A stretch of 63,997 nucleotides of DNA, counting the filler, from Jimgerdemannia flammicorona (Eukaryota), in the NCBI GenBank assembly GCA_003990765.1. It is 3 parts of 3 records of this genome, joined end to end, with 100 filler letters (N's around TTAATTAATTAA, not from the genome) between each part and the next. Parts side by side here need not be neighbours in the genome. Positions count along the whole stretch, not along the records: positions 1 to 21,287 come from RBNJ01001486.1; 2 more parts are not named here. One strand, 5' to 3'. The notes under the pieces are model-generated. The model was not told the origin of the DNA and made no database searches. It was given only the letters and a program-made list of their open reading frames with translations. Position 1 is the first letter of the stretch. Each line of letters begins with the position of its first letter. Shown here in pieces: positions 3,357-42,768 of the stretch. A program made the position numbers and the translations under genes.

Positions 3357-6300
3357 GATACTTCTTGAGTCAGTTTCAGTGAATGGTAGTAGGGATGATT
3401 GTGCCTGAGAGTTTCTGTAGCCAAAAGGTGGTCCCTTTTATATCTTACACAAGGTAAGGTCCTTCCCACTTAGGCTTCAGCTTTCATGACCATGAGGCTT
3501 CTACCATGTTCCGATACACTAGGACTTTGTCTCCTATCTTGATAATCTCCAGGGGCTTGTGAGTCTTTTCCACATTATTCTGTTGTAGTGTCTGTACCTT
3601 GTTTATGTAATCCTCAGCCTTCTTCCTGATTTGGTGCCGTTTCCATATCTCCATATCTACTTATTTCCATACAGCATCTCTATTGAACAATAGGGTTCCT
3701 TGAGAACTTTCTTCTCCAAACAGCATTTCTCGAGGGGTGAAGTGGGTACTTTGTGATCTGATATCCCGGAGAGCAGATAATGCTATTGGCAGATAGTGAT
3801 CCCAGTTTTCATAGTTATCACAGATCTTGGCGATAACATTCTTAAGGGTCTTGTTGGTTCTTTCTACTTGTCCGTTTCCTTGAGGGTGATAGGCTGTAGT
3901 CCAAATGTGCTGGATCTTGTACTTCTTGTAGAGAACCTCAAAGAACTGGTTCACAAATTCTGTTCCTCTATCTGTAATTACTTGCATTAGGGTCTTGAAC
4001 CAGCAGATGATTTCTTTGTGGAAGAAATCGGTGATTGACTGTGCATTGGCTTCCTTGAGGGGTCCTGCTTCTATCCACTTCGTAAAAAGGTCTATGATGA
4101 CAATGATATATCGGTTACCAGTCAGGGTCAAGGGTAGAGGGCCGATTGCATCCATTGCTATGTGGGCAAATGGTACTGGTTCTATATGTGCTGATCCTGG
4201 GGCTTGGTTTTGTTGGTCTTGTTTCTGTTTCTGGCATTTGACGCAGGTTTTGACAAATTGTCTGATATCTTTTTCCATTCCTGGCCACCATATTGTTCTT
4301 CTTGTCTTGTCATATGTATTCATTCCTCCTAGATGGCCAAGTTCATGTACTGATTTCATTGCTTGCTCCTTCTTGTATTCTGCTATGACTAATAGTTTTC
4401 CTTTCCTCAGTGTTTCTCCATCAGATTCAAATTGTTTCCATGTCCTGTTGATAATCGTTTGTGTCCATTCTTCCAGATGTTGGGGCATCTTTTGCTGTCC
4501 CAGATATGTGATGATTCCGTAGTAGAGCTCCTTATTCATAATTGATTTGTTGGTTAGAGGTGTTTCGGGGTGTCCATGAGAGAGCATCTGCATTGGACTT
4601 TGTTCTTCCAGGGCAGTGCACAATGGTTACATCATAGGCTTGTAGCTTCATTATCCATCTGGCATAGATTCCTTTGGGTTGTCCAGTTGTCAGTAGCTAG
4701 GTGAGAGCTGAGTGGTCCATCTGAATGGTGAAGTGTCTTCCAGCCAGGTAGTAGTGGAACTTCTCCACAGCCCAGATGACTGCGAGACATTCCAACTTGT
4801 AGGATTCATATTCTTTTTCAGCTCCTTGGGTTCCACGGCTAAGATATGCAATGACATACTCCTTTTTGTCTTCCTTTTGAGCTAGGACTGCTCCTAGTCC
4901 CTGTGCACTTGCATCAGTCTGCAGGATGAATTCTTGAGTCCAATTGGGTCATCTGAGGATGGGTGTCTGGGTCAGTCTAACCTTGAGTTTGTCAAATGCT
5001 TTTTGTTGTCTGCCAGTCCACTAGAACTTGATGTCCTTCTTGTTGAGTTCATAGATTGGACCTGCGATGTTGGAAAGTCCTCTAATAAATCTATGATAGT
5101 AGGAGGCAAGTCCCATGAAGGCTTGGGCTTCTGTCACAGTGGTGGGCCTTGGGTATGTTGCTACTGCTTATATCTTGAGGGGGTCTGTGTGTATTCCATC
5201 TCGATTGATAATGTGGCCAAGGTAGGAGATCTTGTTTTCTGCAAACTTGCATTTCTTGGGCTTGATGTACAGGCTGTGTTTTCTCAGACTTTCCATTATC
5301 TGCTGTATGTGCTGCAGATGTTCCTCAGATATCTTGCTGTAGATGATTACATTGTCAACATAAACCATCATCCATCTTCCCATGTCATAGTGGAAGATTT
5401 TGTTCATCATTCACTGGAAGCTTGCTAGTGCATTGCACATCCTGAATGGTATTCACAGGTAGATGTAGATTCCATCTGGGGTTATGAAGGCTGACTTTTC
5501 ACTTGCCATTTCTGTGAGTCCGATTTGGTGGAATCCTAAGTATAAGTCCAAGGTGCTGTAGTACTGTGCTTCATCTCCCAGTGTTATAAGGATGTCGCTG
5601 ATGAGGGGCAGTGGTTGGCGATCCTTCTTGGTAACTGCATTGAGCTTTCTGTAGTTGACACAGAGTCTTGGGGCAAATTCTCCAGGCTTGCTTCCTTTTT
5701 TGGAGGCTAGTACAACTGGTGAAGACCAGGGGCTACTGGCTTCTTTGATAATATCGGCTTCTTCCATCTGCTTGATTTCTTCTCTGAGCCATTCCCGGTA
5801 GGCTGGCAGGACAGGTCTTGCTTTTTGGTAAATTGGTTCAGTGTCTCCAGTATCTACCTCATGATAGTAGTGTGGTGTTTTTCCTTTGATATCCTTGAAG
5901 TCTGTGGCAAGGACATCCTCGAATTCATGGAGTATTTTCTTGAGTTCCTCCTTGAGTGGGAATTCATTTCCAATGGTATAGCTATACTTGTTTGTAGTTT
6001 TCTCCTTCTTATGCTCCAGTTCAGTGATCTTGGTACTGGCAAATACTCCTTTTCCTGTGGATTCAAATCCTTTCTTTCCTCTTTTCATTTCCTCCAACTT
6101 CTTAACTTCTATGATCTTTGGTTGTTGGACTGGGAAGATCAACATCTGTGCCAGTTGGTCCTTCTTCTTGATTGAGAATGGAATAGTAGAATTGTAATTC
6201 CTAGCGATGAGTAGTATTTCTCCAATGTAGTCCGAATCAATGACTCCTCCTTCAATTGTAATTTCGCTTCTTGCCAAACTGCTTCTTGTCTTAAGGATCC

Positions 6301-8516
6301 CGATATGATCCTTTGGGATGGTCATCTCCAGGCCAGTTGCAAGTAGAGTAGTTGTCTGGGGTTCAAGTACAGTTTCCTCCACTGTGGCGATATCCATTCC
6401 AGCTACATTTTCCAACTTATATTCTGGCAGGACTGCATCAGAGTGAATCTTCCAGATTTTGACCTTGATTTCTTCTTCATCATCACTGTCCTCTAGAAGG
6501 GCTGGTGGTTCGTCATCTTCCTCCTCCTCCTTTTCCTCTTTGGCTTGTTCCTTGAGGGTCTTTTCTCTTCTTTGGTGGTAGATCTTCTTGATTTTGCCAG
6601 TACACTGGTAGCACTCATTGATATGCTCCATACAGTACATTCAGATCCCATGTGGGCAGACTCCTTGTGGTGCATATCCTTCTGCAATCTTCTTGCACCA
6701 TTCTTCTTCACTCATCCATCCGACTTTCTTCTTCTTTTTCTGTGTGGTCACCATGTAAGCTTCTTCTTGCTCATCTTCCTCCATCTCGAGGAGCACTCCT
6801 TTGTTGACATTGATGGGAATTCGCATCTTCTGACCTCAGTAGATAATCTGCATCTTCTGAGCATTCAGGTCAATTATTGCTCTGGCTTTGTGAAGCCACT
6901 GGTTGCCAATAAGAATGTCATAGTTGGTTGCATTGGTTACTATCACATCCACTGAAATAGTTGCTCCTCCAAACTTGATGGGAACATCTCAGATTTTTCC
7001 CAAAGGGGTGGCTCTTGTACCATCTGCTGTAACAAACACCAACTTGGTTGCTTCTTCGACCTCCCATCCCAGGTGGTCTACTGCCTTCTTGCTGAGGAGG
7101 CATCCTCCTGCTTCTGTATCTATGATGGCTTCAAAGATTCTGTCTTTGATTTGGCAGATTGCATAGGCAGAAGTCTTGCGGTTGTCTTCACTTTCTTCTC
7201 CAGAATCTTCTTGAACATTGTTGGCTTCAGTTATCTTCCAACCCTGCTCCTTGGTTGTTTTGGCAAGTCCAAATCTCATTTGCTGTCTAAACATAGGAAT
7301 TTCTGTGAGCTGGCCGAAGGTTGCATTGACTTTTTGTTGGCTGAGATCCTTGAAGATATCATACTTGAAGGTCTTGGTTTTGCGAAGCTTCTTCTCCTTT
7401 TCTCCTTCACTAGCTGGAGTGGTTTCTCGGATGATATCTTGGACTACCTGTTCAAGCTCTATATCTTGATCCATTTCTTCGGCTTGGCTTTCTGTGGCCA
7501 TTTCCATCTGTTTTTCCACCGGGTTCTTCTTGGGTCTTCCTGGTGGTCTCTTGTAGGGTTTCTTGCGAACATCCTTCTTGGTAGTCTGTGCAGGATAGGC
7601 CTCCCATTCTTTGTCTGACTCTCCGATTTCCTTGAAGGTAATGATGTTGGCCTGTTCCTTGTTTTTAGTAGCATTGCTCAGCTGGGCCTTGTGCTTAGTT
7701 TCACTCATACATTCATATGAGTAGTGGTCTTCTTCTCCACAGCTATAGCAGGTACCTTTCTTCTTATCTGAGATGGCAGCAAACTTCTGAATTGGGTGGC
7801 AATCTCTTCCTCTAATTTCTTTTACTACATCTCCTAGGTGAGCAGTCATTTCAGCAAACTGCTTGGCAAGCTCCTCCATGGGGTCGCTATTTCTCTGCTG
7901 CTCTGTAGCTCTTGTTTGAGGTGTGTTTCGATTGATCATTGTGGTGGGGATCACACTAGTTGCCTTGGGTGTTTCGATTCTAACTCCAGTGACTCTTTCC
8001 ATTATGTGGTCTTGTGGATGTCTGGCTATCCAATATCTCTGAGCATAGGGTGATCTTTTGTGGCAGATCCAGAACTACTGGTGATGAGTGAATGGCCATA
8101 GCTATCTCTAGGTGGACTCCTTTCATGAAGCTTGCTTCGGCTACTTGATCTTGGATAGCATCAGCATAATCTGCGAGAATTATCTGATATCAGATTCGGG
8201 TGTAGAATGTGTTTGGATCCTCGCTTATTTCTTGGCATGTTGTATTGAGCTGATCCTTCAGGGCTTGCTTAATCTCATCTGTATAATAGGTGTTTCGGAG
8301 CCAGGTCTTCTGTGCTGTCAGTATGGCATCAGCATTATTTCCTGCATGGGTTGCGGCTATGAATGCTGCTCTGGCAGGACCTCGTAGGCTGAAGGGCATG
8401 AGGGCTACTTGCTGTGCTGCTGTCAGGGTTCTTACAGCAGCATACTGCTCGAAATCATCAATAAAGGTGATGATTGATTCATCTGAGGTATATCCATAGA
8501 ATACTGGTGGTCTCAT
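3349..8516 (-). pseudogene. gag-pol polyprotein of element A
   Basis: Capsid-like PPVFYG..FIDDFEQYA; CCHC knuckle CYSCGEEDHYSYEC; protease IIDTEAG; RT RLCVNYRKLN and YVDN; integrase HELGH..CVKC, ITDRGTEF, YHPQGNGQVERTN. In-frame stops and frameshifts are present. Confidence 0.92.
6050..6470 (-). pseudogene. dUTPase domain of element A, between protease and RT
   Basis: Trimeric dUTPase motifs AGMDI, RSSLA, GGVIDSDYIGEI, LAQMLI, RGKKGFEST, in frame with RT. Confidence 0.92.
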
Positions 8517-9759: not shown

Positions 9760-10310
9760 TTTTTTTTTTTTTTTTTTTTATAGTTACATAGACTTCAACT
9801 TTATTACTAAACTATCTATGAAATACTAATACAAATGAACTTCCTCATCCAATCTTATTCAGAATCTCTCTTTCTCTCTTTCTATTTCTCCAAAATACCA
9901 CTGACCTCAATCCTCTTCCTACTCTACCTACATATTGTCTCCACCAATCACCTCCAATATCCCCCATCAGCACCCCCACCCCACTACCACCCAGTCAATA
10001 TATCTATCACCAGCCACTCTCATCTAGCCACTCTCACCCCCAATGTTAGCTGTCAACTCTCCTCAAAGACAAATAGCCAATGTCCTGTAAGTCTAATCTA
10101 AATCACCAACACTCATCCTAAAGTCAACCACTCATCTCCCAACCCCCCTACCAACCTCCTCCAGAGGTCACCCCACCTTCTGTCAGCCACCAACTCTAGT
10201 GGGCACCCCCTCAGCTGCATCTCAATCTCTCTCTAAAAGTCACCCATCACCTCACACTCTCCTAACCAATGTTCAGGAGTCTGTACCACTCCTCCCTCCT
10301 GCCCAACATC
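9760..10310 (-). mobile_element. 3'-terminal remnant of an L1-like LINE with poly(A) tail
   Basis: Poly-T on + strand followed by sequence resembling the LINE 3' ends at 42769-43200 and 50476-50986. Confidence 0.6.
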
Positions 10311-10318
10311 CAGACAGA

Positions 10319-10520
10319 TGCATGGTTCTCCCTCTCAGTAACAGTGCTACATTCACTGTCAAAATTCAACCCAATGCAACTGTGACTGACCTCAAGGAGG
10401 CCATTGTCAGACAAAATCTCAATAATGTCGATCCAAAGAAACCCAAGTTGTGGCGCGTCTACATCTCCGCCAGTCGACGATCTGATTCCACCCCCACCTC
10501 CATGCGTACAGGTTGCCAAA
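10319..10520 (+). pseudogene. Crinkler (CRN)-type N-terminal ubiquitin-like domain fragment
   Basis: CMVLPLSNSATFTVKIQPNATVTDLKEAIVRQNLNNVDPKKPKLWRVYIS matches the CRN N-terminal pattern (F.V.I....TV.DLKEAI....VD...L.LW.V). No intact C-terminal part is seen. Confidence 0.7.
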
Positions 10521-12133
10521 CAAAATCTCTATCATTGTAGAGTATTCTGTTATACAAAGAATGTATTTATCTGAACGATACAAATGGTCCCAACAATCTT
10601 TTTGATAATGAAATCCAACCGTTTTCATACACAGTCCTTTGGTATTGTTTTAAACTCCCAAATTGCCACTTTATAATTTTGAGAGAAATGTTGTTGATGA
10701 CCTACAGTTTGCATTCAAAAATGATATTATATGTGCTTAAGTTAGAGAAGTTCTTGGGAGGCTATCTGGAAGGAGATAGCTACTAAAAATGATAATAGTC
10801 ATCTAGTGGGAAATAGTAATTATATCGTTATAGTATTTAGATTCAAATGGCGAGAAACTCGGAACTAGAATAGTCTATATAGATCATCCCAGAATGAAAT
10901 GAAGACTACGTAAATATTATATTTGTAATAAATGCTGGATTGAAATATATTTAAACACAAAAGATAACCTCGTCGCCAATGCCGAGCTTAGGCCTCCTCA
11001 TCTTCCAACTCGCGGGTTGATCTGCACAAATTCCTTGACCACGTCGACGACTCGACCCTCCTTACGAGCTTGTTCGGCTCCGAAAACGTAGAGATGGGAA
11101 ACTAATAAGATAATGTGGTATCGAGATCATCAAAAATCAGTGTGTAAAAAAAAAATGCTTCCGCAACTGATGGAGCCCTTCACATTCCTAGCCATCCTTC
11201 AAGAAGATTGAAGTACCAATAACTTAAATAAGGTCTCTCTCGGCGTGGGTAGATACCGCTTCCATGCTTCCGGACCACGGTCGACTATATTCACCGATAG
11301 AAAGGGCTATTTTCAAAACTTGGTTTTCACACGTTGATTTTAATTTAATTTAATTTAATTTAGTTTTATTTTTGGCTGTTACGCTCTACACGGGTTTACA
11401 GATCAGATTCAAGTGAGATTTATTTCGTGAGTTATACTCAATAACAAAATGTCAATTATCCAATTGAGTCTTTTGTATCAACTTTACGCCTACGTGCAAC
11501 GCAACGTCCAAATCCTCCTCAACGACTAGTTCGTCAATCAAAGGCCATCCTGTAGGAAGCCGTTCATGCCAAGCTGCTTGAACAGGAAGCGGCACCTATC
11601 AAGGACAATACAGGAGCTGCGCCGAGAAGGATGCCGGAGTGGTCGTGCATCAGGTGCCGAGGGGGTAGTGGTTTTGCTCTGGGCGGCGGTCGATCGTCGA
11701 GCTGCGAAGGACGAGACCTAGGATGCCGGGCACCCGAGCAAGATGCTGGAGGCGGAGGAGGAGATGTTGGAGGCCGATCGCGGGAGGGCGAAGAAATCAA
11801 CCGACAGGCGACAATGCATCTCTATGGCTGCCTGGACTTCTGGACTTTGGCGAGGGCGTGCTCCTTTTTGGCGGCGCGGATGTGAGTGTAGATGTATCCA
11901 TCGTGATGTGATGGAGGTAAAAGACATTGGTGTGGACGATGAGTTGATACCCCTTTTATTTATTATGGAGGATTATCGCCCGTTGGCATAACGTCGCTAC
12001 ACCTAGCTCTTATGCTTGTGTTGCATATATTCTCAAAACATTTGGTATGTTATAAATTGGTTCAGCCATCGACCTACTTCCTTATTTTTCCATTGAATGT
12101 ACTTGTATATTGAAATTACAGCATCAAAACGGT

Positions 12134-15100
12134 TCACGTAGACAAATCTTCAAACTCGTAATACTGCAGAATCCCATGCTTATTTTCCTTAATCTTCGTT
12201 CCGCCACACGTTGTCACCATATTACCCCCAAACCCACCCGCCGGCTCGCCTTGAATTGAAGCCTTATACGAACCAACTTGGAAAGCAAAGTTTGTGACAA
12301 CTTTGAAACTCTTGGGGGTTTGTTTGCCAAAGTAGATGGTGACATCGTCATATTTCACCAAACCAGTAGCGCCATTGACCTCGGTGACAATTTTGGGGAG
12401 GTGAGCCACAGAAGCGTTGGTGCTCAACGGATAGAAAGCCGACAAAAAAGATATCTTTTTGTTCTTGACCACGGGAATCGTGTTGTAGGTGTGCACGTGG
12501 TAAATCTGGGACCTGTGTGTGTTGGTGGTTCACCTTCGTTAAGAAACTTGCGCAAGAGAATGTCGGTTGGTTGGAAATACTGCTTGACAGGTTATGCAAT
12601 TACCAGTCTCCTGACATTCCACCGTGGAACCTCCAATACTTGTTTTCGAACTTGGTGTTTGCCGGACCGGCCATTTGCAAGAGATAGGGAACACTCTTTC
12701 CCCCATTCCCGTTCGCAGGACGACTCCACGGGTTGATATAGAAGTAGTCACCGTCTTGAGCGATGACTCCGTTGGTGAGATTCTTCAAAACTTCAGAGAT
12801 CTGCCAAAGCTGGCCAAATTGGAAGGGAGTTCCAGGAACTGAAAAATGAAAGCGTACATTAAAGTGTTGGAAAAGTTTCAACTTTGGGGTCCAAATAAAG
12901 TTAGGTAAATCACTTACTGGTATCGAGGCCGTAGACCGTATCAAATACAAACATCGCTCCGGTCTCGCGATCAAGCGCTACTTCACGTGTGTGCTTGAAG
13001 AGCCGGCTATTATAGCCGTTAAGATTCACCGGCTGGGAGGACCGGGTCATGTAGTTCTCTGTGATTTTGCCATAGGCGACACGGTCGAATTCCATGACTT
13101 CGGCATCAATAATGTTGCGCTGATCAGACCATATATCCCAGCACGACCAGCAAAACGGAAGGATTGGGGAGAATTGCCAGGTGGAGTCCTTATCTGTAAG
13201 AGAGCAAACTCCGTTAGTGTGGCATTCTCAGCAGTGAAGCGGAGGGCACTCAGAGAAGTATTCCGAGCCTTGCGGAATGAATATTATACGCTTACGTACT
13301 TACATTGAGTGTAATTCAAAAATGGACTCCAAGACGGCCTGAGTAGAAATGCGTTGTTCAATACATCGGGGGTGGAGTCGTATCCGGGAAGGCGAAGACC
13401 TACTTGATTTTTCACACCCCAAGCGATAAGATTTCTGATAATAAGCGGGCAAAAAGGTCAATTTGCATGCGTAGCTTTGAAAAATAAAAAGAATGTGAAC
13501 TCCATGGAGCAAAACAGCCTGTACTTACGTAACATCGGCGTGGCCGTGGCCGCCAGTCTGCATACAATTGAGCATCACAAAGGGCTGCTTGCCACGGGTA
13601 TTCGGAGTGGCTTTGCCTCGCAGAATGAGCTTGTCCGGAGCAACCACACCCCGTAGTTGGTGACGCATACTAACCATGGATGACGGGACCCATTCGTTGT
13701 CAAGAGGGATTGTTTCGTCCTGTGAAGGAGAGGGACAGATATGATTTGAGACCCGCTTGCAATGAAGACAAATAATCTGGATCTAGGATCGCGATGCACA
13801 CAAACTTACAAAAAAGTCAATCATGAGGGGTCCAGGATCATCTGTTAAACAGCTATTAAGACCGCCACATTGGTAAATATAAATCTGGTTGGCGACCTTC
13901 TTCAACTTGCTGGCAACGTCAGGATGAGAGGTCTTCAAAAGAGTGGCGGCGATCTACATACGTAGGTGGTCCGAACACAAAATCGAGTAAGCTCTGGCGG
14001 ACGGTTCGTGAGAGCACGGTGATTTCCAGATACAAAATTACCTCGAAGGCTCTCATATACAGATGGGATCCTTGGGCCCAACTGGCATCACCTACAAAGT
14101 GGAATATGCCATCGCGTAAATATAAATATAAAGTCGAGCGGATAGTTCTGCGCATCAAACGCTGATGACATATACAACTAACCGAAACTTGGCAAAACGC
14201 CCCCTGATTCTCCAGCGAAAGGCATAATTTGGTTGGCATAGTCGAGAATCCATTTAGCAAATGGCGCCAGGTATTTTTCGTCCGTGGTTTTGATGATGGA
14301 GTACTAAGACGATCCCAGTAAATCGAATAGGAAATAAAGGCAGTCAGATGCGCCTCATTAACCGTGGAGCCCTCGACGCGGTAGTTTGAGTCTGAATATT
14401 CGAATCCGTCTTCGGATGGTGACATACTTACAGGATTGAGGGATCCGATCGCAGCCCATGCCCAACAAACCATTGACAGATCGTCACCGCCGTAAGTAGA
14501 GCTAAAAAAAAAAAAAAAGACTCAATATGTCATCAATTAGAAGTTCAAGTAAATAAATAAATTATTTATTACCTATCAGAAGCGATGCCGACGCCATGAC
14601 CGCCCTTGAAAGGTGTAATCACATTGTGCCACAAGCTGTCAGTTCCTTTCTGCTGGGAATATACTTGTTCATGGCAATCAGGGGCCGGAAAATTCTTTTA
14701 AATGAAAGGATTCATGTTAGACTGATTGGTGACAACGGTTTGTAATTACAACACAATGGGTATTTTTAATAATAATAATTAAAAAAATAAAAAAAAACGC
14801 ACCAAAAAAGTACTCGGGAAGGTGGCCATCCACTTGTAATATCTTGTGACATCGCCTTTGGTGAAAACGCCATTGTTTGGGTATTTTTTAACGACATCGT
14901 CAATAGCGAAAATGACGCGGAAACAACCGGTTTCAACGATATCAGCGAACCCGTTCTCTTGCACTGGGTTATAGGAGACGCCCACGGTTAAGTCGATGAT
15001 ATACTTGATTGCTATAAGGAAGAGAGGATGAGGACTTAGAGTTTAAAAGAGGTTCGGAACTTGTACACGCCAAAAGGAATGAAAAATAAACGATTACCCT

Positions 15101-15844
15101 TGTATACATAGGTGGATTGGCTTCCAAGGCCGTAACCCAAATTTTGATGCTTTGTTGCAATACTCAGCGCCGCTCCAACTCCGTCCAAACTGCATTGAAA
15201 TTCCCATACAGTCTCATTGTACGTAGCGCTGTTCTTCCCACCTACGCCTTCGTTGATTATACGGGCAAAACCTTCTAACCACAAAGGCGCCAATGCAAAA
15301 TAGGCTTTGAATACGTCAGCATCGATGTTGGCCACTTTCTGGAACTCTTTTTCATCCCTTTTGGGTGAGGGCGGACGGTAAGTGTGAGATCAGCGTCAAT
15401 TTTTACACTTAGATCTGCTAAATTATGAATGGAACTTACCAGATCTTCAGCGCATATAGACCAAGATCTGCCATGCAAGGAGGGTCGCGATAGAACGACC
15501 AGGTGGTATTGACCGGAACCTAGTTACATATGTTATGCAAACAGGATGGAGCTTCGTCACTCAGCACTTTCTTTCCAAAACATCGACATTGGGGTTGAAT
15601 CCTACCGTCAAGAACTGTTTAACCTGGCCTGCGACACTCCCATTTAGGCTCGGAAGCCTATAAAAGGCTCCAAAAAGGACATTATGCCAAGTTCTGCTTT
15701 TGGTTGCGATTGCGGAAGCGCCAATGGTGCTCAGCACGACAGAGATTGCTAATATTCTGAGAGTGATTTGATGTCAGAAGCCGTTGGATCCATGTTGACC
15801 TGCAAAGGATTTCAAGTGGCTAACCTTGAAATTCTAGTATTCAT
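12134..15844 (-). CDS. Secreted heparinase II/III-like protein (polysaccharide-lyase-type fold), ~820 aa, 15 exons
   Basis: Manual splicing over 14 GT-AG introns gives one open frame. Signal peptide MNTRISRILAISVVLSTIGASAIA. Motifs GVLPSFGDA, PDKLILRG, GGHGHADV (13534-13554), LPGY..DVLNN and HTREVALD..FVFDTV, in the order seen in heparinase II/III-like C-terminal domains. Confidence 0.8.
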
Positions 15845-16049
15845 GAATTAAACAGCGCTGGGAAAGGGTATTGTGCAATCAACGCACTGAAACAACTAGA
15901 GAGGTACATCGACGGAGCGAACAGATCAATGCCTTTTTATGATTCATGGCGCGTTTAGCCTTCTCCCGGGTCCGACGACAAACAAGTTACCAGAGTTGTA
16001 TTACATATTGCTGTTGTTCGGAACGCAGGCCGAAGGATGTTTCGCGATC

Positions 16050-17165
16050 TTTCGACGCAACTAACAAAAGCGCGTGTCCTTTTTAGGGAAACCCGCCAAG
16101 TTTGGCAGGATGTTAATACTCCGTTCCCAAGAATGTCAAACAATTGACCAAGCCAATATAGAGCTTGTCACGTTGCACTGGATTACAGTTCTTTAGTATT
16201 AGGCTCTTTCGAATTGGACATATGCCACCAACACCCACGACGGACAGGATATCACCGTGTATTAGAAATGTTCGGTCTTGGTCTAAACACAAAATAAAGC
16301 ATTCCCGTCAACCCATTTAGGATAACCGAGCATGAGCAATTTTGAGTATCAAAGGATTTCTGGCCAGACCTACTTCCCTCCATAAGGGGATATTATCAAA
16401 TCTATTTCGCGGTTAGCAAATCTCCCAAGGTTTTCGACGCAACTAACAAAAGTGCGTGTCCTTTAGGGAAACCCGCCAAGTTGGCATGATTTTAATACTC
16501 CGTTCCTAAGAATAATGTCAGACAATTGACTAAGCCAATATAAGGCTTGTCACGTTGCCATAACCCACAGTTCCTTATAGTGTTAGGCACTTTCGAATTG
16601 GGCATTTGCCACGATTGTTCAATGTCCGCCAACGGACGGATATCACCGTGGATTAGAGATGTTTGGTCTGGGCTAAACACAAAATAAACCATTCCTGTGC
16701 TTAGTCAACCATTTCTGGCCAGACCTACTTGCCTCCTATATGTTTTGATGTGAAACGAAAATTCAGGAGACCATAGTATTCTTTCGACGCAACTAACAAA
16801 AGCGTGTGTCCTTTTTAGGGAAAACCGCCAAGTTGGCAGGATTTTAATACTCCGTTCCTAAGAATAATGTCAGACAATTGACCAAGCCAATAAGGGCTTG
16901 TCACGTTGCCATAACCCCGACTAGATTACAGTTCCTTATAATTAGTGTTAGGCTCTTTCGAATTGGGCATTTGCCACCATTGTTCAATGTCCGCCAACAC
17001 CCACGACGGACAGGATATCACCGTGAAATAGAAATGTTTGGTCTTGGTCTAAACACAAAATAAATCATTCCCGCCAACCCATCTGCAAGAAATTTAGGAT
17101 AACCGAGCATGAGCAATTTTGTGTATCAAAGAACCATTTCTGGCCAGACCTACTTACCTCCTATA
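16050..17165. repeat. Three tandem copies of a ~310-380 bp unit in the divergent intergenic region
   Basis: Units start TTTCGACGCAACTAACAAAAG at about 16050, 16432 and 16782. Each ends GGCCAGACCTACTT..CC(T)ATA. Confidence 0.92.
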
Positions 17166-17227
17166 TATAGTGACATTTTGTCCATAAGATTCGGGGAGTT
17201 CTCAAAGGCCAAAAACGACACGAAAAT

Positions 17228-18627
17228 ATGCGCGTTTTGGATGTGGCCATCGCTCTCGGCGTTTGCGTGCTTTCAATTACCACCAAGAGCGAAGCAGCTC
17301 AATTAGATGCTACGAATTGGATTCCCGCTGCGTTGTAAGTATCACTTTATGTTTGTCGAAGACATCCTCACTCGTTGCTAACAATACATTTTTCGGTCGT
17401 CTTAGTCCAGGCAACGAGATAGCCTGGCGTGCTATAGACGGCGATACCTCTAGTGAATGGAATACTGAAGGTCAATATTGACAGACGCATCTCACACTGG
17501 TAAACCATCGTCAACTGCTAATGCACACCATTTATTCTCTACAGGAAATCAGAAAGTTGGTAACTGGTGGGCGGTAGATATGCGCTCAGTTCAAAGTTTT
17601 GAGAAGATTATTCTCAACATTCCCAATCCCAGCAGCTGTAATTATCCGAGGGGATGGCAGCTTCGTCTCAGCAGTAATCCAAAGGTGTGGGGGAAAGATG
17701 AAAAGGCTTGGGGAGAGCCGGTTAAAACTGGTAATTCGTCCACCGGTCCCCCATCGACTGTTATCAACTTCTCCAAAAATACCAAAGCGCGTTACGTGAA
17801 TATCACGCTTACAGCGGGCGATGGGATCTGCTGGTAAACGAGATTCTTTTGCTGAAGTTGCTTGAACGGCGTCTAACCTTTGCTCGTGACTCATCAGCCA
17901 TCGTACTTTGCATCAATCAGGTGGTCTTTCGACGAATTCCAAGTCTTCAATTCTGTCCCCGTTGTAAACAAAACCGTGTGGGCTAACCAATATCTAGCCG
18001 ATGACACCTGCCGCATTACGTATTCAGGTACAATCCGAACAAGCAATTGTATTGTAATTTGCAAACGTTGTTGACCTTTACAATTCTATCGCAGGTAAAT
18101 GGGGTGCAGAATCTAATAATATAACCACAAGGTTTGCCAACACTGCGGGCGCCTCTGCTACATTTTATTTTGGCGGAGAGAGGTATACGATTGAAATGTC
18201 AAGTGCAATTTGTCTATTAGGCATAGAACAGCTGGGATACTGGTATTGAATTTTTTATTTTATTTTATTTTTTTCGTATACAGCGTTGCCTGGGTAGGGC
18301 CGAAAAAGAACAACCATGGTATTGCTCAAGTATACATTGACGGCAAGCTCGTCGGAGAAGTCAATTCGTACGCTGCAAAAGCTACCAAAAGCGTCATCCT
18401 TTTCAAGTACGTACTCTTATATATATATTCTTTTGCGCTGAGAATAATTTTCTCCTCGTCACTAATATCTTTTTTTTTTTAAAAAAAAAAAAAAAAGACG
18501 AACCGGTCTACGTCTCGGCCAGCACACTCTCAAGATCGTAGTGTCAAACAAAAAGGCGATTGGGTCCCAAGGGATCAATCAGGAATTGTTTGGGTTTTTG
18601 ACGGATCCCTTCATTATTACAACTTGA
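17228..18627 (+). CDS. Secreted F5/8 type C (discoidin/CBM32) protein with a second galactose-binding-like beta-sandwich, 302 aa, 7 exons
   Basis: Exons 17228-17334, 17406-17470, 17545-17833, 17921-18027, 18095-18182, 18284-18406, 18498-18627 splice in frame. Signal peptide MRVLDVAIALGVCVLSITTKSEA. CBM32 motifs AIDGDTSSEW, WWAVDM, YPRGW, KARYV, WWSFDEF. Second domain ITYSGKW..GASATFYF..WVGPK..GIAQVYIDG..GQHTLKIVV. Confidence 0.85.
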
Positions 18628-18950
18628 ATAACATTTTATTTATTTATTATATTTTTTAACAAATAAAAAATAGAAATTCTTGGTCACCTTCATCATTCCG
18701 TGTCGTTTTTGTAAACAAACTATGTATATCACCAGAACGCTGAATTGTCACTACAACAATCGTTATCATGCAGATTGAAACACGACAAAGCAGGCGCTTA
18801 CCATCTATCTACGAAATTGCAAGCACCACACTTGTGCACGAATGACGATAGCTCAATATTAGTATATTGAATCTTGCCGGCAACCAGGCCACCTGGCGCG
18901 GTTCTAAATTGTTAACTTTGACAACCCCGGCTTTGGCAAGCTGTAAACGG

Positions 18951-21287: not shown

Positions 21288-21387
21288 NNNNNNNNNNNNN
21301 NNNNNNNNNNNNNNNNNNNNNNNNNNNNNNNTTAATTAATTAANNNNNNNNNNNNNNNNNNNNNNNNNNNNNNNNNNNNNNNNNNNN
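21288..21387. other. Artificial contig spacer
   Basis: N44-TTAATTAATTAA-N44 (stops in all six frames). Confidence 0.97.
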
Positions 21388-28139: not shown

Positions 28140-30214
28140 TATAAGAGGGTTGCTTTTTAGGATAACTGTTACATAGTTCTGGAAGGGTTTTCTAGAAGTT
28201 CTGGATATTCTGGAAGACCGTTTTCTTATGGTCAAGATCAATTTCATATGGAGTATGTCCTCTATACTTATTGATTTCAAGATTGGGTTGATGTCTCAAC
28301 CAAAGTCCTTTTTCGGACTAGTTCTGGATGTTCAGGATTTTCCGTATTTCAGGAAGTTCCAGAAACTAAGACCAGCTTAGTTGAATTGGCATATCGCTGT
28401 AGACAATACCCAATTCGGAAATTTTATGAGGGAGTTAGGAGTAGGACCTAACAGAGAGCAGATTTACTTAAGAGTGGTTTGTGGATTATGGAATAGGTTT
28501 ATTTGCTATTCATGATATTGCTATACTAGGAGTAGTTGTGTGAAGGGATATTGTGGGAAAGTATTCAGGAATGTTCTTATGTGTTCGAGTCTGTTCAAGT
28601 CTGAGATTCTGAGGTCTGAGGGAGGGGGTATTTATACTAGTGAGGGGCTATCTGGACTATGCTAAATATGGATGTAGCACTAAGATGCCTCGCTGAGTTG
28701 GAATGCAGTCATGTAGTATAAGGGTGATCTGACATATCAAGAGATCATCTGACTGCTGAGTCAGTTCGCAGTCATATCATACAAGGCTAATCTAACTATA
28801 CTATGACTGCTAGACTATTTATGGATTTAGGCACTATCTGGGTAGTCCTCAATGACATCACTATCGATTGCATCATCTCTGATGAAGTAGTCATCTAGAA
28901 AAAGTGGTTCACGGATTACTTCTCCTTATTCACTGAGGTAGTAATACATTGAGACTTCATCTCTGTCCCACAGGATAGCGTCGTCTGTCTCGTAGGCTGG
29001 ATAAGGTGTTGGTGGGCGAAGGATAGGTGTGTTGTCTTCACTTTCATTGTATTTACTGTCTGTATATCTTCTATAAGTTATGGCACTATGAGTTGCAGGG
29101 TTATAGTATGCTGGTGGCTGTGATTCGTGTCGCTCGTACTTGGGTGGTGGAGTGGTTGGTTCGATCTCGAGGGTTGTCTGGAGATACAGGTTGTGTTCTC
29201 TGGTCTCTTCATTGTAGTTGAAGTAATCGGGGGTGAAGGCAGGTTGGTATTCATGCCAGTGGTCATTGTCCCAATAAGTCTCGTATGTAATTATGAACTG
29301 TTGTAAGTTCATTGACAAGGTTGGCAGAGTGATCAGGGTTGGCAGAGATCCTTGGCTGGAGGTCATATCGGTGTCAGAGGGGTCATTGTCTTCTGCTTCA
29401 TCTTCATTGAAGTGGATTATATCATAGATATCCTTCATGGCATATCCAACTTGAGGCATTTGCAGGATATGGTCATTGGTGTGTAGGAAGGTTCTGTCTG
29501 TGGTTTCAACATACTCAAGGTACTTGTGGTTGAGTTCTTATATCATGTCGTCAATTTGGCCATAGGACAGGGTAGCAACCATTTCACTGGTAGTAACTCG
29601 GAGGCGAGGAATAAAGGTACTATACTCGAAGAAGAGTTCTCAATGTTTGCGAGCAATGAGCTTCTGGTGTTGAGACATCTGGGTAATGTCTGTGTCATGG
29701 TGGTGTTCAACCATGTCTTTCAGGAGGCGGCCGTTCTGGTAGTAGCTTGAGATTTGTCCGATTCGGTGGGCCTCACTAATCATGTTCAGAGCATTCCATC
29801 GGGCTTCCATGAAGTAGAGGGGTGCCAGGCCATGGATATTCATGAGAGGCAGGGGGGGTGTGGCTCGGTTGACAATGGCATTCCAAATGTCAGCGCGGAT
29901 TTGGTTGTAGATCTCAGTGGTCATGTTTGTATGTTTTGGAAGTTTGTGGTTATTGTTTATTTTGGTTCTCTATTTCAATGTGTCTCAGTGCTCGGTATAT
30001 ATATATTTGATCCTGATTGGTAAGATTCCATTTGTATAGATCTTGTGTTCTGTGACTTCATATTAACTCAGCTTTGTGCACTGTGACTTTGGTTTGACTC
30101 AGCTTTGTGATCAAGCAGGTGATTTCCAAATTTGTTTGGAGGTCATGTGATATTTCAGTGGCTTGTTCAGAGGGTGACGTGTAATTTCAGTGGCTTGAAG
30201 GTTGTGTGCTTACA
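28140..30214 (-). repeat. 3' LTR of element B (2075 bp)
   Basis: Direct repeat of 36736-38807; terminal TG mutated to TA. Confidence 0.95.
28827..29924 (-). pseudogene. LTR-encoded ORF (365 aa), unknown function, acidic/Pro-rich C-terminus with PPxY motifs
   Basis: ORFs 29640-29924 and 28926-29459 share one frame and are separated only by TGA/TAA stops explicable as CGA/CAA. Contains PPPKY and PPAYY. Confidence 0.8.
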
Positions 30215-30669
30215 ACTCTCCCCTTTTTAGCTTTCAACATCCTCATTGGGGCCTTCTAATTTTGTTCAGTATTGTTACACCATTTGGGAGGTCAAAAGTC
30301 TGGTAAGGTCCATTTTTCTCAGAAAGTGGCATGCTCGTAGTACAGTTGTCTAACGCATTGGATTCATATGTTAAAGGGTCATGTGTTCAATGCCATACGC
30401 TGGAAGTGATTCTGACATCATTCACTGCTGGAGAATTTCCTCTAAGGAATCTTCTTAAATGTCTATGCCTTGTTTCCCACCAGTGGTACAGAGAGAATAG
30501 GCTTGCTTTCAGTTTTGCTATTTTTTCAAGGGATTTGGTGTTCTTGTCTTATTTTGCTGAGTTCTTGGTTTGGTTCACAATAATTATAATGTTTGGGAGG
30601 ATAATATATAGTATATGTTGGTAGGTGCAGAGAATTTTGGTTCTAGTTATTCAAGGAATCATATTCCTG

Positions 30670-30815
30670 AACTAGGTCAGTAGCATTATGAAGATTGGTC
30701 TTGGGTTCCCAGGTTGCATCATGGATTGGGTAACCTTTCCATTTGCAAAGATACTCAGGGTGGCTCTTGTTGCCACGTTTGTTGAGAATTTGTTCAACTT
30801 TGTACTCTTCTTGAT
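30670..30815 (-). pseudogene. Integrase C-terminal chromodomain of element B
   Basis: [11 protein letters not shown]....[22 protein letters not shown]. Confidence 0.9.
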
Positions 30816-33800
30816 TATTAATAATGACAGGTGCAGGTGGTTTGGTGGTTTGGTTTGGAAATAACTCATCATCATTCTCATTGTATCACTTGAGATGTTG
30901 AATATTAAAGACTGGGTAAATCTTAATGGTGTCTGGTAGCGCCAGTTTGTAGGAGGTTGGAGAGACTTGTGCGATGACTTCAAATGGTCCAATGAACTTG
31001 CTGTTCAGCTTAGTAGATGGTCTGTGCTTGAGGTTGTCAACTCGATATCCTCTGATGTCCAGTAGAACTTTTTCTCCAATATCAAAGGTTTCTTCTCAGT
31101 GGTGTTGATTAACATACTGTGATTGTTGTTCTTGAGCTTGTGATAAATTCTTGATTGCGATCTGGCTTAGATTATGCATTCGGAGTAAGAATTCTTCAAC
31201 AGCTTCGACTGTGGAGAGTTCTTCAGTAGTTCGGATGAGTGTCAAAGGGGTGTTTGGGTTTTGTTCAGTGTTGGTGAAGAATGGGGTCATTCCAAGAGAG
31301 GCTTGCTTGCTATTGTTATAGGTAAACTCAACTGCAGTGAGGTGTTCATACCAATCATCTTGTCTGTAGGAAACATAGTTCCTTAGCATTTGTTCCAGAG
31401 TTCGGTTCATTCTTTCAGTTTGGCCATCAGTTTCTGGGTAAAAGGCTGTAGATAGTGCAAGTTTTGTTCCAAGGTGTGCATGAAGGGCTTTCCAAAAGTG
31501 GCTGGTGAATTTCAGATCTCGCTCACTAACAATGATCTTAGGAAGACCATGATAGTGGAAGATGTTGTCAAACAAGAGTTTGGCTATGTCTGGTGCTGTT
31601 GCAGTAGTGGTAGTAGGCACAAAGTAGGCTTGTTTGCTGAGATAGTCTACAAAGACAACAATTGCATCTTTCCCATTCTTGGTTCAGGGTAGTTGTACAA
31701 TGAAGTCCATGGAGATTTGTTCCCAATTTGTGGATGGTACTGGGATAGGGTGGAGTAAGCTGGGTTTTGCTAGTGTTGAGGACATGTTTCATTTGGCAGG
31801 CATCACAGAAAGTGATGTAGGTTTTGAGCTGATCTGCCATACGGGGCCAATAGAAGTTCTAAGAGATAACTTTATAGCATTTGTCAAATCCTAAATGTCC
31901 CACTGTAGGGGCATCATGATATTCGAATAGGATAGTCCTTCGGAGGTCTCGGTTGTTTGGGACATACAGTCTGTCCTTGTAGTAGATAGCATTGTCCTTG
32001 AGTTGATATTGATTGTACCGGGTATGCTTGTCAGCATCATCATTGTTCAGAATTTCTCAGAGTGCTTGAGCTTTCTTATCATTAGTATATGCTGTGATAA
32101 TTTGTTCCATGCTGGAGTTTGTAACCAAGGTGAGAGTTTGGATAACCTCTTCAATTGGTGGTCTTGAGATTGCATTGGCAACAATATTTTCCTTGCCAGG
32201 ACAGTACTGGATTTCGTAGTCAAAGTTGGTGAGAACTTTCATCCATCTGGCTTGCTTTTGGGAAAGGGTAGCCTGGGTCTTGATGTTGACTAATGACTTG
32301 TGGTCGGTCAATACAGTGAAGTGTGCTCCTTCTAGATATGGTCACCATTTGATCAGAGTGTCTATGATGGCTAGCATTTCCTTCTCGTGAGTTGCATAGT
32401 TGATTTCGGCATCATTGAACTTGTGGGAGTGATAGGCCACAGGGTGTCCTTCTTGCATGAGTACTGCTCCAAGGGCTAGATCAGAGGCATCAGTAGTGAC
32501 TTCATATGGCAGGGCAGGGTTTGCTGCTTGAAGTACTGGAGTAGTTATCAGGACATCTTTCAGTGCTTGAAAGGCAGTATCTTGTTTGGGTCCCCATGTT
32601 ACAAGATTGTTGAAGTCTTTCTCTTATTTCATGGTCCAGGGTTGTTCTTGTTTCTTGTTGTACTTGGTCATTTGAGTGAGGGCAGTAGTGATTTTCGCAA
32701 AGTTGGCAACAAATCGCCTATAATAGTTTGCTAGTCCCAGAAATGACTGGAGGTCTTTCAGCTTCTTCGGTCTGGGCCAATATTTGATTGCAGAGATTTT
32801 GCTGGGGTCAACTTTGATTCCATTTGGAGTGACAATGTGTCCAAGGAATTGAATTTCTTTCAGAAGAAATTTGCAATTTGCTGAGTTTTGCAAAGAGTCA
32901 GTTTTCTCGGAGTTTCAGTAGTACTAGTTCAAGGTGTTCAAGATGTTCTTCCAGGGTTTTGCTGAAGACTAGGATGTCGTCAATGTAGATAACAATGAAT
33001 TTGTCCAGGTATGGATGCAGAATGGTATTCATCAGTGTCTGGAAAGTTGCTGGAGCATTAGTTAAGCCAAAGGGCATAACTAGGAACTCGAAGTGTCCAT
33101 AGCGAGTTTGGAAGGCTGTCTTGTAGATGTCTTCTTCTTTCATGGCAATTTGCCAGTAACCATTTTGCAGATCAAAAGAGCTCATGAATTGTGGGTTGGT
33201 GAGCCTATCGAATATTTCATCAATTCTAGGTAGTGGGTAACAGTTCTTGATGGTCTGTTCATTGAGATCACGGTAGTCAATACACATTTGCAGGTCTCCT
33301 CCTTTCTTAACAAAGAGGATGGGTACACCATAGGGTGATACACTGGGTCTGATGAATCCTTGTTCTAGGAGTTTGTCGATTTCCTTCTTGAGTGCATCAA
33401 TTTCTCTCGGAGACATGTGGTAGATTGACTTGAAGGCTGGTTTGGTATCTGGGATGGTCTTGATGGTATAGTCTACTGCTCGCTTAGGAGATAGGCCTTT
33501 CTGAAGCTTCTTTGGGAATATGTCTCGAAATTTCTGAAGTAGTGGTCTGACATGGCTGTCAACTTTGGAAAGATCTTCTTCAGAGTTCTCAGGTTCTCCT
33601 TTGGATGAGTGGATGGAGATGGTGAAGAGAGGGCATTTCTTGGCCAATTTCTTAAGTTGTAGCTTGTTGATGTGAGTGATCTTTGGTCCAGGGTCACTAG
33701 TGTTGAGTGAGTCCTTTTCGCCTTATAGTTTGAAGTTGTGGCATCCTTTCTTGATGCTCAGAGAATGGTTTACCCAATCAATCATGGGGTTCTCTTGTTT

Positions 33801-34304
33801 TAACTGTGGAGTCCCAAGGATGATTTCATTGTCAGGAAGTGGTACGATTTGGAGGGTAACATATACTTGATAGTCGCCAATTCAGAAGGGTAGATTGCAG
33901 ACTTCTTTGCTGATAACATGTGAGGTCCCATCGGCTGTAGCAACTACTTGAGTTTGCTATACTGGAGAGGTAAAGACCTTGAGTCTGTTGGCTGTCTCTT
34001 CATTGATGAAGTTGCCTGAGGCACTACTGTCTATTATAATCTTGATAGGTGCTCGATTGACAAAAGCTTTAAGTGTAAGCAGTTTGTCTGATCCAATGGT
34101 AGTAATTTCGGTTGTTTGAGCTTTCCTTCTGTTAGTTCTTCTTTGAGCCAGTTCATTGACACAAGAGAAGCAATCATCAATTATTTGGGAAGAGTACATT
34201 CCAATGCCATGGGGACATCAGCCACTTGGTATATATCCATCTTCGATCTTCTTGTAGAATTATTCTTCTTTGTTCATGGTAGGTTGGGCTGGCACCTTGT
34301 TGGA

Positions 34305-42668: not shown

Positions 42669-42768
42669 NNNNNNNNNNNNNNNNNNNNNNNNNNNNNNNN
42701 NNNNNNNNNNNNTTAATTAATTAANNNNNNNNNNNNNNNNNNNNNNNNNNNNNNNNNNNNNNNNNNNN
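42669..42768. other. Artificial contig spacer
   Basis: N44-TTAATTAATTAA-N44. Confidence 0.97.

What the first reader, a model, noticed from the sequence alone, without database searches (positions are those of the whole stretch)
12134..15844. Intact, intron-rich, secreted heparinase II/III-like gene in a fungus
Seen: 15 exons splice without stops into ~820 aa with a signal peptide and LPSFGD, DKLILR, GGHGHAD and PGY..N motifs. The ORF track misses it because of the introns. Known: this motif series belongs to heparinase II/III-like domains (PL12/15/17/21-type lyases), which are mostly bacterial. The usual HN motif reads LNN here. Inference: an old horizontal acquisition or new lyase subfamily acting on uronic-acid polymers (own glucuronan-rich wall, plant or bacterial polysaccharide).
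Basis: partly seen in the sequence, partly recalled or inferred. Interest (0 to 1): 0.75.

Follow-up and report, generated by a model that had tools for sequence, protein, structure and literature searches.

The report
Unclassified bacterial-type glycan lyase in fungus
A plant-associated fungus carries an intact, secreted, intron-rich gene from an unnamed family of heparinase-like sugar-chain enzymes that came once from bacteria and survives in only a few eukaryotes, which changed part of its active site.

Summary
The gene is real. Fifteen GT-AG exons (minus strand, 15844-12134) give 812 aa with no internal stop and a signal-peptide-like start. The host is Jimgerdemannia flammicorona (Endogonales), named by the database record. 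This model fits homologues better than NCBI's. A duplicate keeps all 14 introns (dN/dS 0.44).

No Pfam, NCBIfam or PDB sequence hit exists. AlphaFold2 plus fold searches (Z about 18; 27 for a bacterial relative) and HHalign (97.8-98.1%) place it in the heparinase II/III superfamily, 8-15% identical to every solved family. It is an unnamed family, not a member of PL12/15/17/21/35.

Relatives are rare, mostly unlabelled bacterial-type proteins (some Verrucomicrobiota, often beside glycosidase genes), two ascomycetes, and an unidentified intron-bearing eukaryote sharing two intron sites. All eukaryotic copies form one clade (100/100) nested in bacteria.

Catalytic Tyr284, His467/His469, Asp346 and Tyr491 are kept. 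The Asn, Glu and metal-His kept by the bacterial members are replaced in all eukaryotic copies.

Best reading: a secreted beta-eliminating lyase of a uronic-acid heteropolysaccharide (about 50%). An epimerase or rewired protein stays open. Activity and expression are untested.

The parts
12134..15844 (-). 15-exon gene, 812 aa, predicted secreted; N-terminal alpha/alpha toroid (about residues 25-410) and C-terminal beta-sandwich (about 420-780)
15757..15844 (-). Exon 1 (20 nt, start codon) and intron 1; absent from NCBI's model
   Evidence: same ATG and splice sites in the duplicate
15606..15756 (-). Exon 2: hydrophobic core of the signal peptide and start of the mature protein; absent from NCBI's model
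   Evidence: 19 of 24 N-terminal residues kept in the duplicate; eukaryote profile aligns from residue 28
14803..15011 (-). Exon 5: Asn190 (14955-14953), next to the column of the bacterial neutraliser Asn (which reads Gly191 here), plus the 30-residue helix that NCBI skips
14492..14494 (-). Tyr284, putative catalytic acid (and possibly base); Tyr in 28 of 28 aligned rows
   Evidence: role by analogy to GAGase II Tyr246 and DS-epi1 Tyr261 (PMC12088678, PMC8006597)
14087..14089 (-). Asp346 of the PSFGD motif; Asp in 28 of 28 rows
13540..13548 (-). His467-Gly-His469: putative catalytic His and first metal-site His; both His in 28 of 28 rows
13353..13391 (-). Leu488 (middle metal-ligand slot), Tyr491 (second Tyr), Asn499-Asn500 (the 'HN' slot)
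   Evidence: spacing matches DS-epi1 Glu470/Tyr473/Asn481 (PMC8006597)
17228..18627 (+). Head-to-head neighbour: 7 exons, 302 aa, signal-peptide-like start, F5/8 type C (CBM32-like) domain plus a second beta-rich domain of no Pfam match
   Evidence: (PF00754 E 4.4e-9)
11411..18886 (.). Block holding both genes, duplicated at 79-88% identity on G000:C8801 (L003)

Best explanation
The gene encodes a secreted two-domain enzyme (alpha/alpha toroid plus beta-sandwich) of an unnamed family within the heparinase II/III superfamily. SHOWN: gene structure, frame conservation, fold class, homology, conserved Tyr284/Asp346/His467/His469/Tyr491, and one eukaryotic clade nested in bacterial sequences. INFERRED mechanism: an acidic heteropolysaccharide binds in the cleft between the domains; His467, or Tyr284 helped by Tyr491, removes the C5 proton of a uronic acid; Tyr284 protonates the leaving oxygen; the chain breaks by beta-elimination and leaves a 4,5-unsaturated end. 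Because the bacterial Asn, Glu and metal-His are replaced in all eukaryotic copies, carboxylate binding and substrate probably differ from the bacterial form and the metal site may be empty. INFERRED role: extracellular cutting of a fucose/rhamnose/uronic-acid polymer (own wall matrix, plant or microbial), perhaps aided by the co-duplicated carbohydrate-binding neighbour. INFERRED history: one old transfer from bacteria (about 0.85), then introns gained and the gene lost from most fungi. The confidence below is for 'active lyase on a uronic-acid polymer'.
For: Fold: model of P0002 (pLDDT 69.9, pTM 0.78) matches heparinase III 5jmf at Z 17.9 (rmsd 5.9, 489 aligned), GAGase VII at 16.7 and Alg17c at 16.6; the top 33 rows are lyases of this superfamily or DS-epi1. 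The bacterial relative P0005 (pLDDT 88.3) gives Z 27.5 to 5jmf (rmsd 5.3, 501 aligned). HHalign of the 28-row family against 15 PF07940 proteins: 97.8% and 98.1%, E about 1e-13, 384-414 columns; reversed control 0.1%; it pairs the Asn, Tyr, GD, HxH and HN motifs. ESM Atlas 0.95-0.96 to Hepar_II_III_C, DUF4962 and ulvan-lyase clusters. The Asn/Tyr/His triad is the catalytic set of PL35 and PL12 (PMC12088678, section 8, Table 4). Tyr and His survive at 25% identity across eukaryotic copies. Sugar-active neighbours in 3 of 4 close bacterial loci; one has a true PF07940 gene 14 kb away. Trees: eukaryotic rows 100/100 in both; joining the window protein to its best bacterial hit is rejected (p-AU 5e-48). 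Mucoromycotina walls hold fucose and glucuronic acid (PMC7928374, passage).
Against: The column that is Asn in 22 of 22 bacterial rows reads Gly, Ala or Ser in 6 of 6 eukaryotic rows (a nearby Asn or His, here Asn190, may substitute); Glu (22 of 22) is Ser in 6 of 6; the third metal His (15 of 17 close bacterial rows) is Asn or Gln in 6 of 6; the middle ligand is Leu. In GAGase II, loss of the Asn abolished activity and loss of the metal ligands abolished or greatly reduced it (PMC12088678, sections 6 and 8). The same fold also serves an epimerase (6hzn, Z 15.7, rmsd 4.1). No member of the family, bacterial or fungal, has a tested activity. The fold was predicted from NCBI's flawed model, with low confidence near the Asn region, and its coordinates could not be inspected. 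One of four bacterial loci (L010) shows no glycosidase neighbour. The two ascomycetes are not expected to share the Mucoromycota wall polymer (recalled), which weakens the own-wall substrate.
Confidence: 0.5

Rival explanations
1. Rewired protein: same fold and cleft, but no longer a polyuronide lyase. It either does other Tyr/His chemistry on a glycan lacking a free carboxylate at the +1 site, or is a non-catalytic secreted glycan binder.
For: Three residues kept by the bacterial members (Asn, Glu, metal His) changed together on the branch to the eukaryotes, and the middle metal ligand is Leu, Ser or Asn. The eukaryotic stem is long (1.0-1.3 changes per site).
Against: Tyr284, Asp346, His467, His469 and Tyr491 are kept in all 6 eukaryotic rows, which is hard to explain without catalysis. 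The middle ligand also varies in bacteria (Thr, Gly or Asp in 4 of 17).
Confidence: 0.27
2. C5-epimerase like dermatan sulfate epimerase 1: it removes and returns the C5 proton without breaking the chain, remodelling a uronic-acid polymer of the wall or matrix.
For: DS-epi1 has this fold (6hzn Z 15.7, rmsd 4.1, 542 aligned; Z 20.3, rmsd 3.6), a two-tyrosine pair and Asn as third metal ligand with the same spacing as Tyr491/Asn499; its authors note that small changes can turn a lyase into an epimerase (PMC8006597, passages).
Against: DS-epi1 needs His205 and Glu470 (PMC8006597); neither slot holds those residues here. The protein looks soluble and secreted, with no second hydrophobic anchor. 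The bacterial relatives sit among degradative enzymes.
Confidence: 0.17
3. History only (independent of function): one bacterial entry, then spread by later fungus-to-fungus transfers among plant-associated fungi, rather than ancient inheritance with mass loss.
For: Only three named fungal species, in two phyla, among 65 hits of a search of 1.84 billion representatives. No other Mucoromycota protein was named. All three are conifer-associated (recalled, not from a call).
Against: The split (window + L008) versus (Delphinella + Geopyxis), 97/94 and 100/100, fits the fungal species tree; the first pairing had only 65/53. Long paths (1.1 changes per site between the two ascomycetes, 2.5 to the window) and only 2 of 5 shared introns point to great age. 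Members hidden inside 50% clusters were not seen.
Confidence: 0.4
4. Artefact: a mis-spliced pseudogene or a contaminating non-fungal contig.
For: No Pfam hit for any exon. The duplicate has a premature TAG 17 codons before its end.
Against: 14 GT-AG introns kept in two copies; dN/dS 0.44; the neighbour gene in the same duplicated block decayed (11 of 13 indels shift frame) while this one did not (0 of 3); near-identical protein in a second assembly; Crinkler-type and Ty3/gypsy sequence on the same contig.
Confidence: 0.04

Closest known systems
PL12 heparinase III (BT4657 5jmf; HepC 4mmh)
   Same: Best structural match for both models (Z 17.9 and 27.5); Asn/Tyr/His catalytic set (Asn240, Tyr294, His424; PMC12088678 Table 4).
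   Different: 11-13% identity; no PF07940 or PDB sequence hit; Asn slot altered in the eukaryotic copies; heparan sulfate is an unlikely substrate (inference).
PL35 GAGases (8khv, 8khw) and fungal PL35 proteins
   Same: Same fold (Z 15.6-16.7); Asn192/Tyr246/His401 triad with His403 metal site and Tyr427; PL35 proteins are reported in basidiomycete secretomes (PMC9499651 table row; bioRxiv 2023.10.24.563746 passages).
   Different: 11-15% identity; the metal ligands that GAGase II needs are not all present; the window's genome has no PF07940 match at all, so this is not its PL35 gene.
PL15, PL17, PL21, PL33, PL39, PL40 lyases (3a0o, 4nei, 2fut, 8r70, 6jp4, 9vtk; family labels partly from PDB titles and PMC12088678, partly recalled)
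   Same: Same two-domain architecture, Z 13-17; HxH...D/E...Y...HN motif order.
   Different: 8-13% identity; the His that follows Asn in the PL15/17/21/39 neutraliser motif is absent from the whole family (Asn is followed by Ile, Leu, Trp, Arg, His or Gln in bacteria).
Human dermatan sulfate epimerase 1 (6hzn)
   Same: Same fold; Tyr pair; Asn as third metal ligand; a eukaryotic protein of bacterial-lyase architecture (PMC8006597).
   Different: 8% identity; His205 and Glu470 equivalents missing; DS-epi1 is Golgi-luminal, this one looks secreted.
Unnamed bacterial family (P0005, P0008, P0010, P0013-P0018, L009-L012)
   Same: True sequence relatives, 22-33% identity, E down to 2e-37; same length and motifs.
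   Different: No introns; keep Asn, Glu and usually a full His/Glu/His metal site; uncharacterised themselves.

Membership tests
Heparinase II/III structural superfamily | alpha/alpha toroid followed by a beta-sandwich | tested here: met
   NCBI-model protein; bacterial relative
Heparinase II/III structural superfamily | profile-level homology to PF07940-bearing proteins over both domains | tested here: met
   HHalign 97.8% and 98.1%, reversed control 0.1%; 15 of 24 fetched PF07940 loci passed the motif filter and were used
Heparinase II/III structural superfamily | catalytic Tyr in the toroid and His of the HxH loop | tested here: met
   Tyr284, His467 and His469 in 28 of 28 rows; by alignment only, geometry not inspected
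Heparinase II/III structural superfamily | Asn/His carboxylate neutraliser | tested here: inconclusive
   Asn in 22 of 22 bacterial rows; column reads Gly191 here, with Asn190 one residue off in an indel region
Heparinase II/III structural superfamily | His-(Asp/Glu)-(His/Asn) metal site | tested here: not met
   His469 and Asn499 present, middle slot Leu488; Glu or Asp in 14 of 17 close bacterial rows
Pfam Hepar_II_III_C (PF07940) | HMM score above the gathering cut-off | tested here: not met
   no hit for 11 exons, P0001 or 24 relatives; none in G000
CAZy PL12/15/17/21/33/35/39/40 | detectable sequence similarity to solved members | tested here: not met
   no lyase hit in PDB by phmmer or by two profiles at E up to 10; 8-15% structural identity
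CAZy PL families, including those without solved structures | dbCAN/CAZy family HMM assignment | not testable with these tools
   no dbCAN library held; NCBIfam 0 of 7 proteins
Polysaccharide lyase (EC 4.2.2.-) | beta-elimination giving 4,5-unsaturated uronate ends | not testable with these tools
   needs an assay
Secreted protein | N-terminal signal peptide, no other membrane anchor | tested here: met
   hydropathy scan only; kept in the duplicate; no predictor run
Bacteria-to-eukaryote horizontal transfer | eukaryotic sequences nested within bacterial diversity | tested here: met
   inside two 100/100 bacterial nodes when rooted on a sister family; most 'bacterial' rows are unlabelled metagenome proteins, anchored by L009-L012
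Bacteria-to-eukaryote horizontal transfer | integration in the host genome | tested here: met
   14 introns, host-type neighbours, duplicate, second assembly
Bacteria-to-eukaryote horizontal transfer | absence from most related eukaryotes | tested here: inconclusive
   few eukaryotic hits, but only cluster representatives are searched and no fungal genomes could be scanned

The most novel reading that the evidence does not exclude
A new polysaccharide-modifying enzyme family entered fungi once, before Mucoromycota and Dikarya split or by later spread among plant-associated fungi. On entry it swapped the Asn, Glu and metal-His of its bacterial parent, giving a metal-free Tyr/His enzyme with a new substrate or reaction (for example a lyase or epimerase for fucose- and glucuronate-rich wall polymer, or for a host-root polysaccharide), working with a co-located secreted carbohydrate-binding protein.
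Probability: 0.3. Interest if true: 0.75.

Novelty: new variant of a known kind. Interest (0 to 1): 0.52.

Why it matters
It is a candidate new carbohydrate-active enzyme family that Pfam, NCBIfam and PDB sequence searches miss, so CAZyme counts for this fungus, and for its bacterial carriers, would overlook it. The bacterial form (full triad and metal site) and the eukaryotic form (three active-site swaps) make a natural pair for testing how this fold moves between lyase, epimerase and other chemistry. It also supplies a corrected gene model with the signal peptide that NCBI's model lacks. The surprise is moderate: this fold is already known in fungi (PL35), and bacterial glycan enzymes moving into eukaryotes is a familiar pattern.

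Tried and rejected
Word-index homologue searches found only the gene's own cluster; one search missed even rows of its own query alignment, so these blanks carry no weight. 41 of 65 hits matched only one short stretch in several repeats; the 2 scanned were TPR proteins and the other 39 were dropped on pattern without scanning. RNA: no RNA holder was listed, so no reads were laid; this says nothing on expression. Nothing found in viral contigs (eukaryote-type patterns only) or plasmids. PDB profile hits to designed helical proteins were rejected as generic helix matches. NCBI's start at Met73, its shortened exon 5 and its extended exon 7 were tested and scored lower or were closed in the duplicate; the later start alone was neutral on the mixed profile (384.7 vs 384.5) and 5 bits lower on the eukaryote profile; a direct BLAST of exon 2 against the Delphinella protein gave nothing useful. 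One variant was built in the wrong place and is replaced. My guess that the N-terminal extension of L008 is an F5/8 domain got no Pfam support and no similarity to the neighbour gene. A shared intron near the end with the Delphinella-like genes (their reading frames stop at the same Trp) could not be tested. Literature: 0 papers for five accession terms, 0 for PL35+fungal+heparinase II+polysaccharide lyase, 1 for Jimgerdemannia+polysaccharide lyase (listing only), 1 for fungal lyase+transfer+glucuronan+PL7 (listing only); subscription papers and supplements were not seen and could hold CAZy labels for this gene. Earlier scan notes: none by sequence or place.
Full report
OBSERVATION. The minus strand between 15844 and 12134 holds 15 exons separated by 14 GT-AG introns of 68-128 nt. 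Joined, they give 2439 nt and 812 residues with only the terminal stop. The strongest hydrophobic stretch is residues 5-23, as expected for a signal peptide (no dedicated predictor). The window joins several contigs; bases 1-21287 are G000:C1486. NCBI annotates a partial protein here, RUS33107.1 of Jimgerdemannia flammicorona (Endogonales, Mucoromycota), and a near-identical one, RUP50593.1, in another assembly.

GENE MODEL. NCBI's model starts at Met73, skips 30 residues of exon 5 and extends exon 7 by 23. Dropping the 30 residues gives 358.3; adding the 23 gives 369.5. The later start is neutral on that profile and 5 bits worse on a eukaryote-only profile. A second copy lies on G000:C8801; two exon searches found only these two loci. 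It keeps the ATG and 14 of 14 donor/acceptor pairs, has three in-frame exon indels, dN/dS 0.44 over 801 codons (Fisher p 9e-7), and a TAG 17 codons before its end. The duplicated block (window 11411-18886) also holds a head-to-head neighbour at 17228-18627: 7 exons, 302 aa, signal-peptide-like start, F5/8 type C domain (PF00754, E 4.4e-9). In the duplicate that neighbour is dead (11 of 13 exon indels shift frame, start codon lost). This is an internal control showing that the lyase-like reading frame was held by selection. No RNA evidence was available.

WHAT IT IS. Pfam finds nothing relevant in 11 exons, in the NCBI protein or in 24 relatives. NCBIfam finds nothing in 7 proteins. PDB sequence searches find no lyase. 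PF07940 has no match in the own genome (an exon-wise search that could miss split genes). Three other methods agree on the superfamily. ESM Atlas scores 0.95-0.96 to unnamed, mostly Verrucomicrobiota clusters and to Hepar_II_III_C, DUF4962 and ulvan-lyase clusters. An AlphaFold2 model of the NCBI-model protein (pLDDT 69.9, pTM 0.78) has a helical N-terminal half and a beta-rich C-terminal half; its top 33 structural rows are PL12, PL35, PL17, PL39, PL33, PL21, PL15 and PL40 lyases and DS-epi1 (Z 17.9 to 12.9, 8-15% identity). A better model of the bacterial relative P0005 (pLDDT 88.3) gives the same list, led by heparinase III (Z 27.5, rmsd 5.3, 501 aligned). HHalign of a 28-row family alignment against 15 PF07940 proteins gives 97.8% and 98.1% probability over about 400 columns, against 0.1% for a reversed control. 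So it works like a heparinase II/III-fold enzyme but is filed under no named family.

ACTIVE SITE. PL35 GAGase II uses Asn192, Tyr246 and His401, all essential, with a Mn site at His403/Asp405/Asp421/His457; heparinase III uses Asn240, Tyr294 and His424 (PMC12088678; sections 6 and 8 read, other passages seen). DS-epi1 uses His205, Tyr261 and Tyr473, with Mn on His452, Glu470 and Asn481 (PMC8006597; passages). In the 28-row alignment Tyr284, Gly345, Asp346, His467 and His469 are invariant, and Tyr491 is kept in 23 of 28 (the 5 sister-family rows have Arg). Three changes separate all 6 eukaryotic rows (four independent lineages) from the bacteria. The neutraliser column is Asn in 22 of 22 bacterial rows and Gly, Ala or Ser in the eukaryotes; a nearby Asn or His (Asn190 here) may take over, in an indel region where the alignment is unsure. 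The Glu five residues before the Tyr (22 of 22) is Ser. The third metal His (15 of 17 close bacterial rows) is Asn or Gln. The middle ligand is Leu, Ser or Asn, but it also varies in bacteria (Glu or Asp in 14 of 17).

RELATIVES AND HISTORY. A search of 1.84 billion representatives gave 65 hits. Of these 24 are true relatives: the duplicate's fragment, clusters holding Delphinella strobiligena (Dothideomycetes) and Geopyxis carbonaria (Pezizomycetes), 5 eukaryote-like metagenome fragments and 16 bacterial-type proteins. The other 41 were dropped as repeat matches. Metagenome loci L004-L008 carry a spliced homologue (35-40% identity, introns of 47-67 nt) from an unidentified eukaryote. Two of its 5 introns in the aligned span sit at the same codon and phase as window introns 11 and 12; chance is about 5e-4, or 0.04 with a tenfold site bias. 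Titled bacterial genomes with close members are a Spartobacteria bin, a Bryobacterales bin (gene frameshifted) and a bin titled Kuenenia. Among 301 genomes drawn from the phylum of G002, 4 matched at 1e-10 and 2 closely, one of them G002 itself, so the family is rare in bacteria too. Two trees (21 rows, mixture model; 20 rows, LG+G4, rooted on a bacterial sister family; near-duplicate and fragment rows left out) put all eukaryotic rows in one clade (100/100) inside two well-supported bacterial nodes. Forcing the window protein together with its best bacterial hit is rejected (p-AU 5e-48). The donor lineage is unresolved, the stem is long, and several rows differ in composition. One origin is also backed by shared substitutions. 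The inner topology fits the fungal species tree, so ancient gain with mass loss (about 0.5) and later fungus-to-fungus spread (about 0.4) are both open.

SUBSTRATE CLUES. Three of four close bacterial loci have sugar-active neighbours: two 3-keto-disaccharide hydrolases and a Gfo/Idh/MocA oxidoreductase (L009); an alpha-L-fucosidase and a Gfo/Idh/MocA (L011); and fucosidase, GH106 rhamnosidase, GH127, alpha-galactosidase, a BNR-repeat protein, a GH5 and a pectate-lyase-like protein around L012, with a true PF07940 gene 14 kb away. L010 shows none. This points to a complex fucose/rhamnose-bearing acidic glycan for the bacterial form (inference). Mucoromycotina walls contain fucose and glucuronic acid, and Endogonales are plant symbionts (PMC7928374, passages); Rhizopus PL14 enzymes are proposed to remodel wall glucuronan (PMC11325530, passages). 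Own wall, plant and microbial polymers cannot be told apart here.

COMPARISON AND VERDICT. The fold is not new to fungi: PL35 proteins appear in basidiomycete secretomes (PMC9499651, one table passage; bioRxiv 10.1101/2023.10.24.563746, passages). What is new is the family, which has no profile or characterised member, its single entry into a scatter of eukaryotes, and the active-site changes on that branch. No paper named these accessions; subscription papers, supplements and dbCAN were not available. Active lyase 0.50, rewired or non-catalytic 0.27, epimerase 0.17, artefact 0.04. New variant of a known kind; interest 0.52.

Noticed in passing
window 17228-18627 (+): Unreported 7-exon, 302-aa secreted gene with an F5/8 type C (CBM32-like) domain and a second beta-rich domain, head-to-head with the lyase-like gene; its duplicate on C8801 is a pseudogene. 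Origin not searched beyond plasmids, PDB and the own genome.
   Followed up: partly
window 16000-17170: Several imperfect direct repeats of a few hundred bases between the two divergent genes; matches only on this contig and the duplicate contig.
   Followed up: partly
window 10097-10540 (+): Frame with a Crinkler N-terminal domain (PF20147, E 1.7e-8); looks like a short remnant.
   Followed up: partly
window 3661-8074 (-), 28926-36578 (-): Ty3/gypsy-like retroelement pieces read from translations (integrase, reverse transcriptase, protease; the first with a dUTPase-like stretch); labels recalled from motifs, not scanned.
   Followed up: no
window 21288-21387 and 42669-42768: N runs with a short spacer: the window is a join of separate contigs, so context beyond 21287 is unrelated.
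   Followed up: yes
L008 1-600: The spliced metagenomic homologue has an extra N-terminal region of over 100 residues with no convincing Pfam match; its host is unidentified.
   Followed up: partly
P0011 C-terminus; P0069 and P0009 N-termini: P0011 ends in a hydrophobic tail like a GPI signal; the Delphinella and Geopyxis proteins have Ser/Thr-rich linkers after the signal peptide, suggesting cell-surface roles (read; no predictor).
   Followed up: no
L014, L017, L019 (5380-7914 and 14610-16895), L020: A second unnamed bacterial sister family (760-850 aa) with the same Asn/Tyr/HxH core, Arg in place of the second Tyr and an inserted domain; no Pfam hit.
   Followed up: partly
P0006, P0070, P0071: Delphinella-like reading frames stop at the Trp where window intron 14 lies, hinting at a third shared intron; DNA not available.
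   Followed up: no
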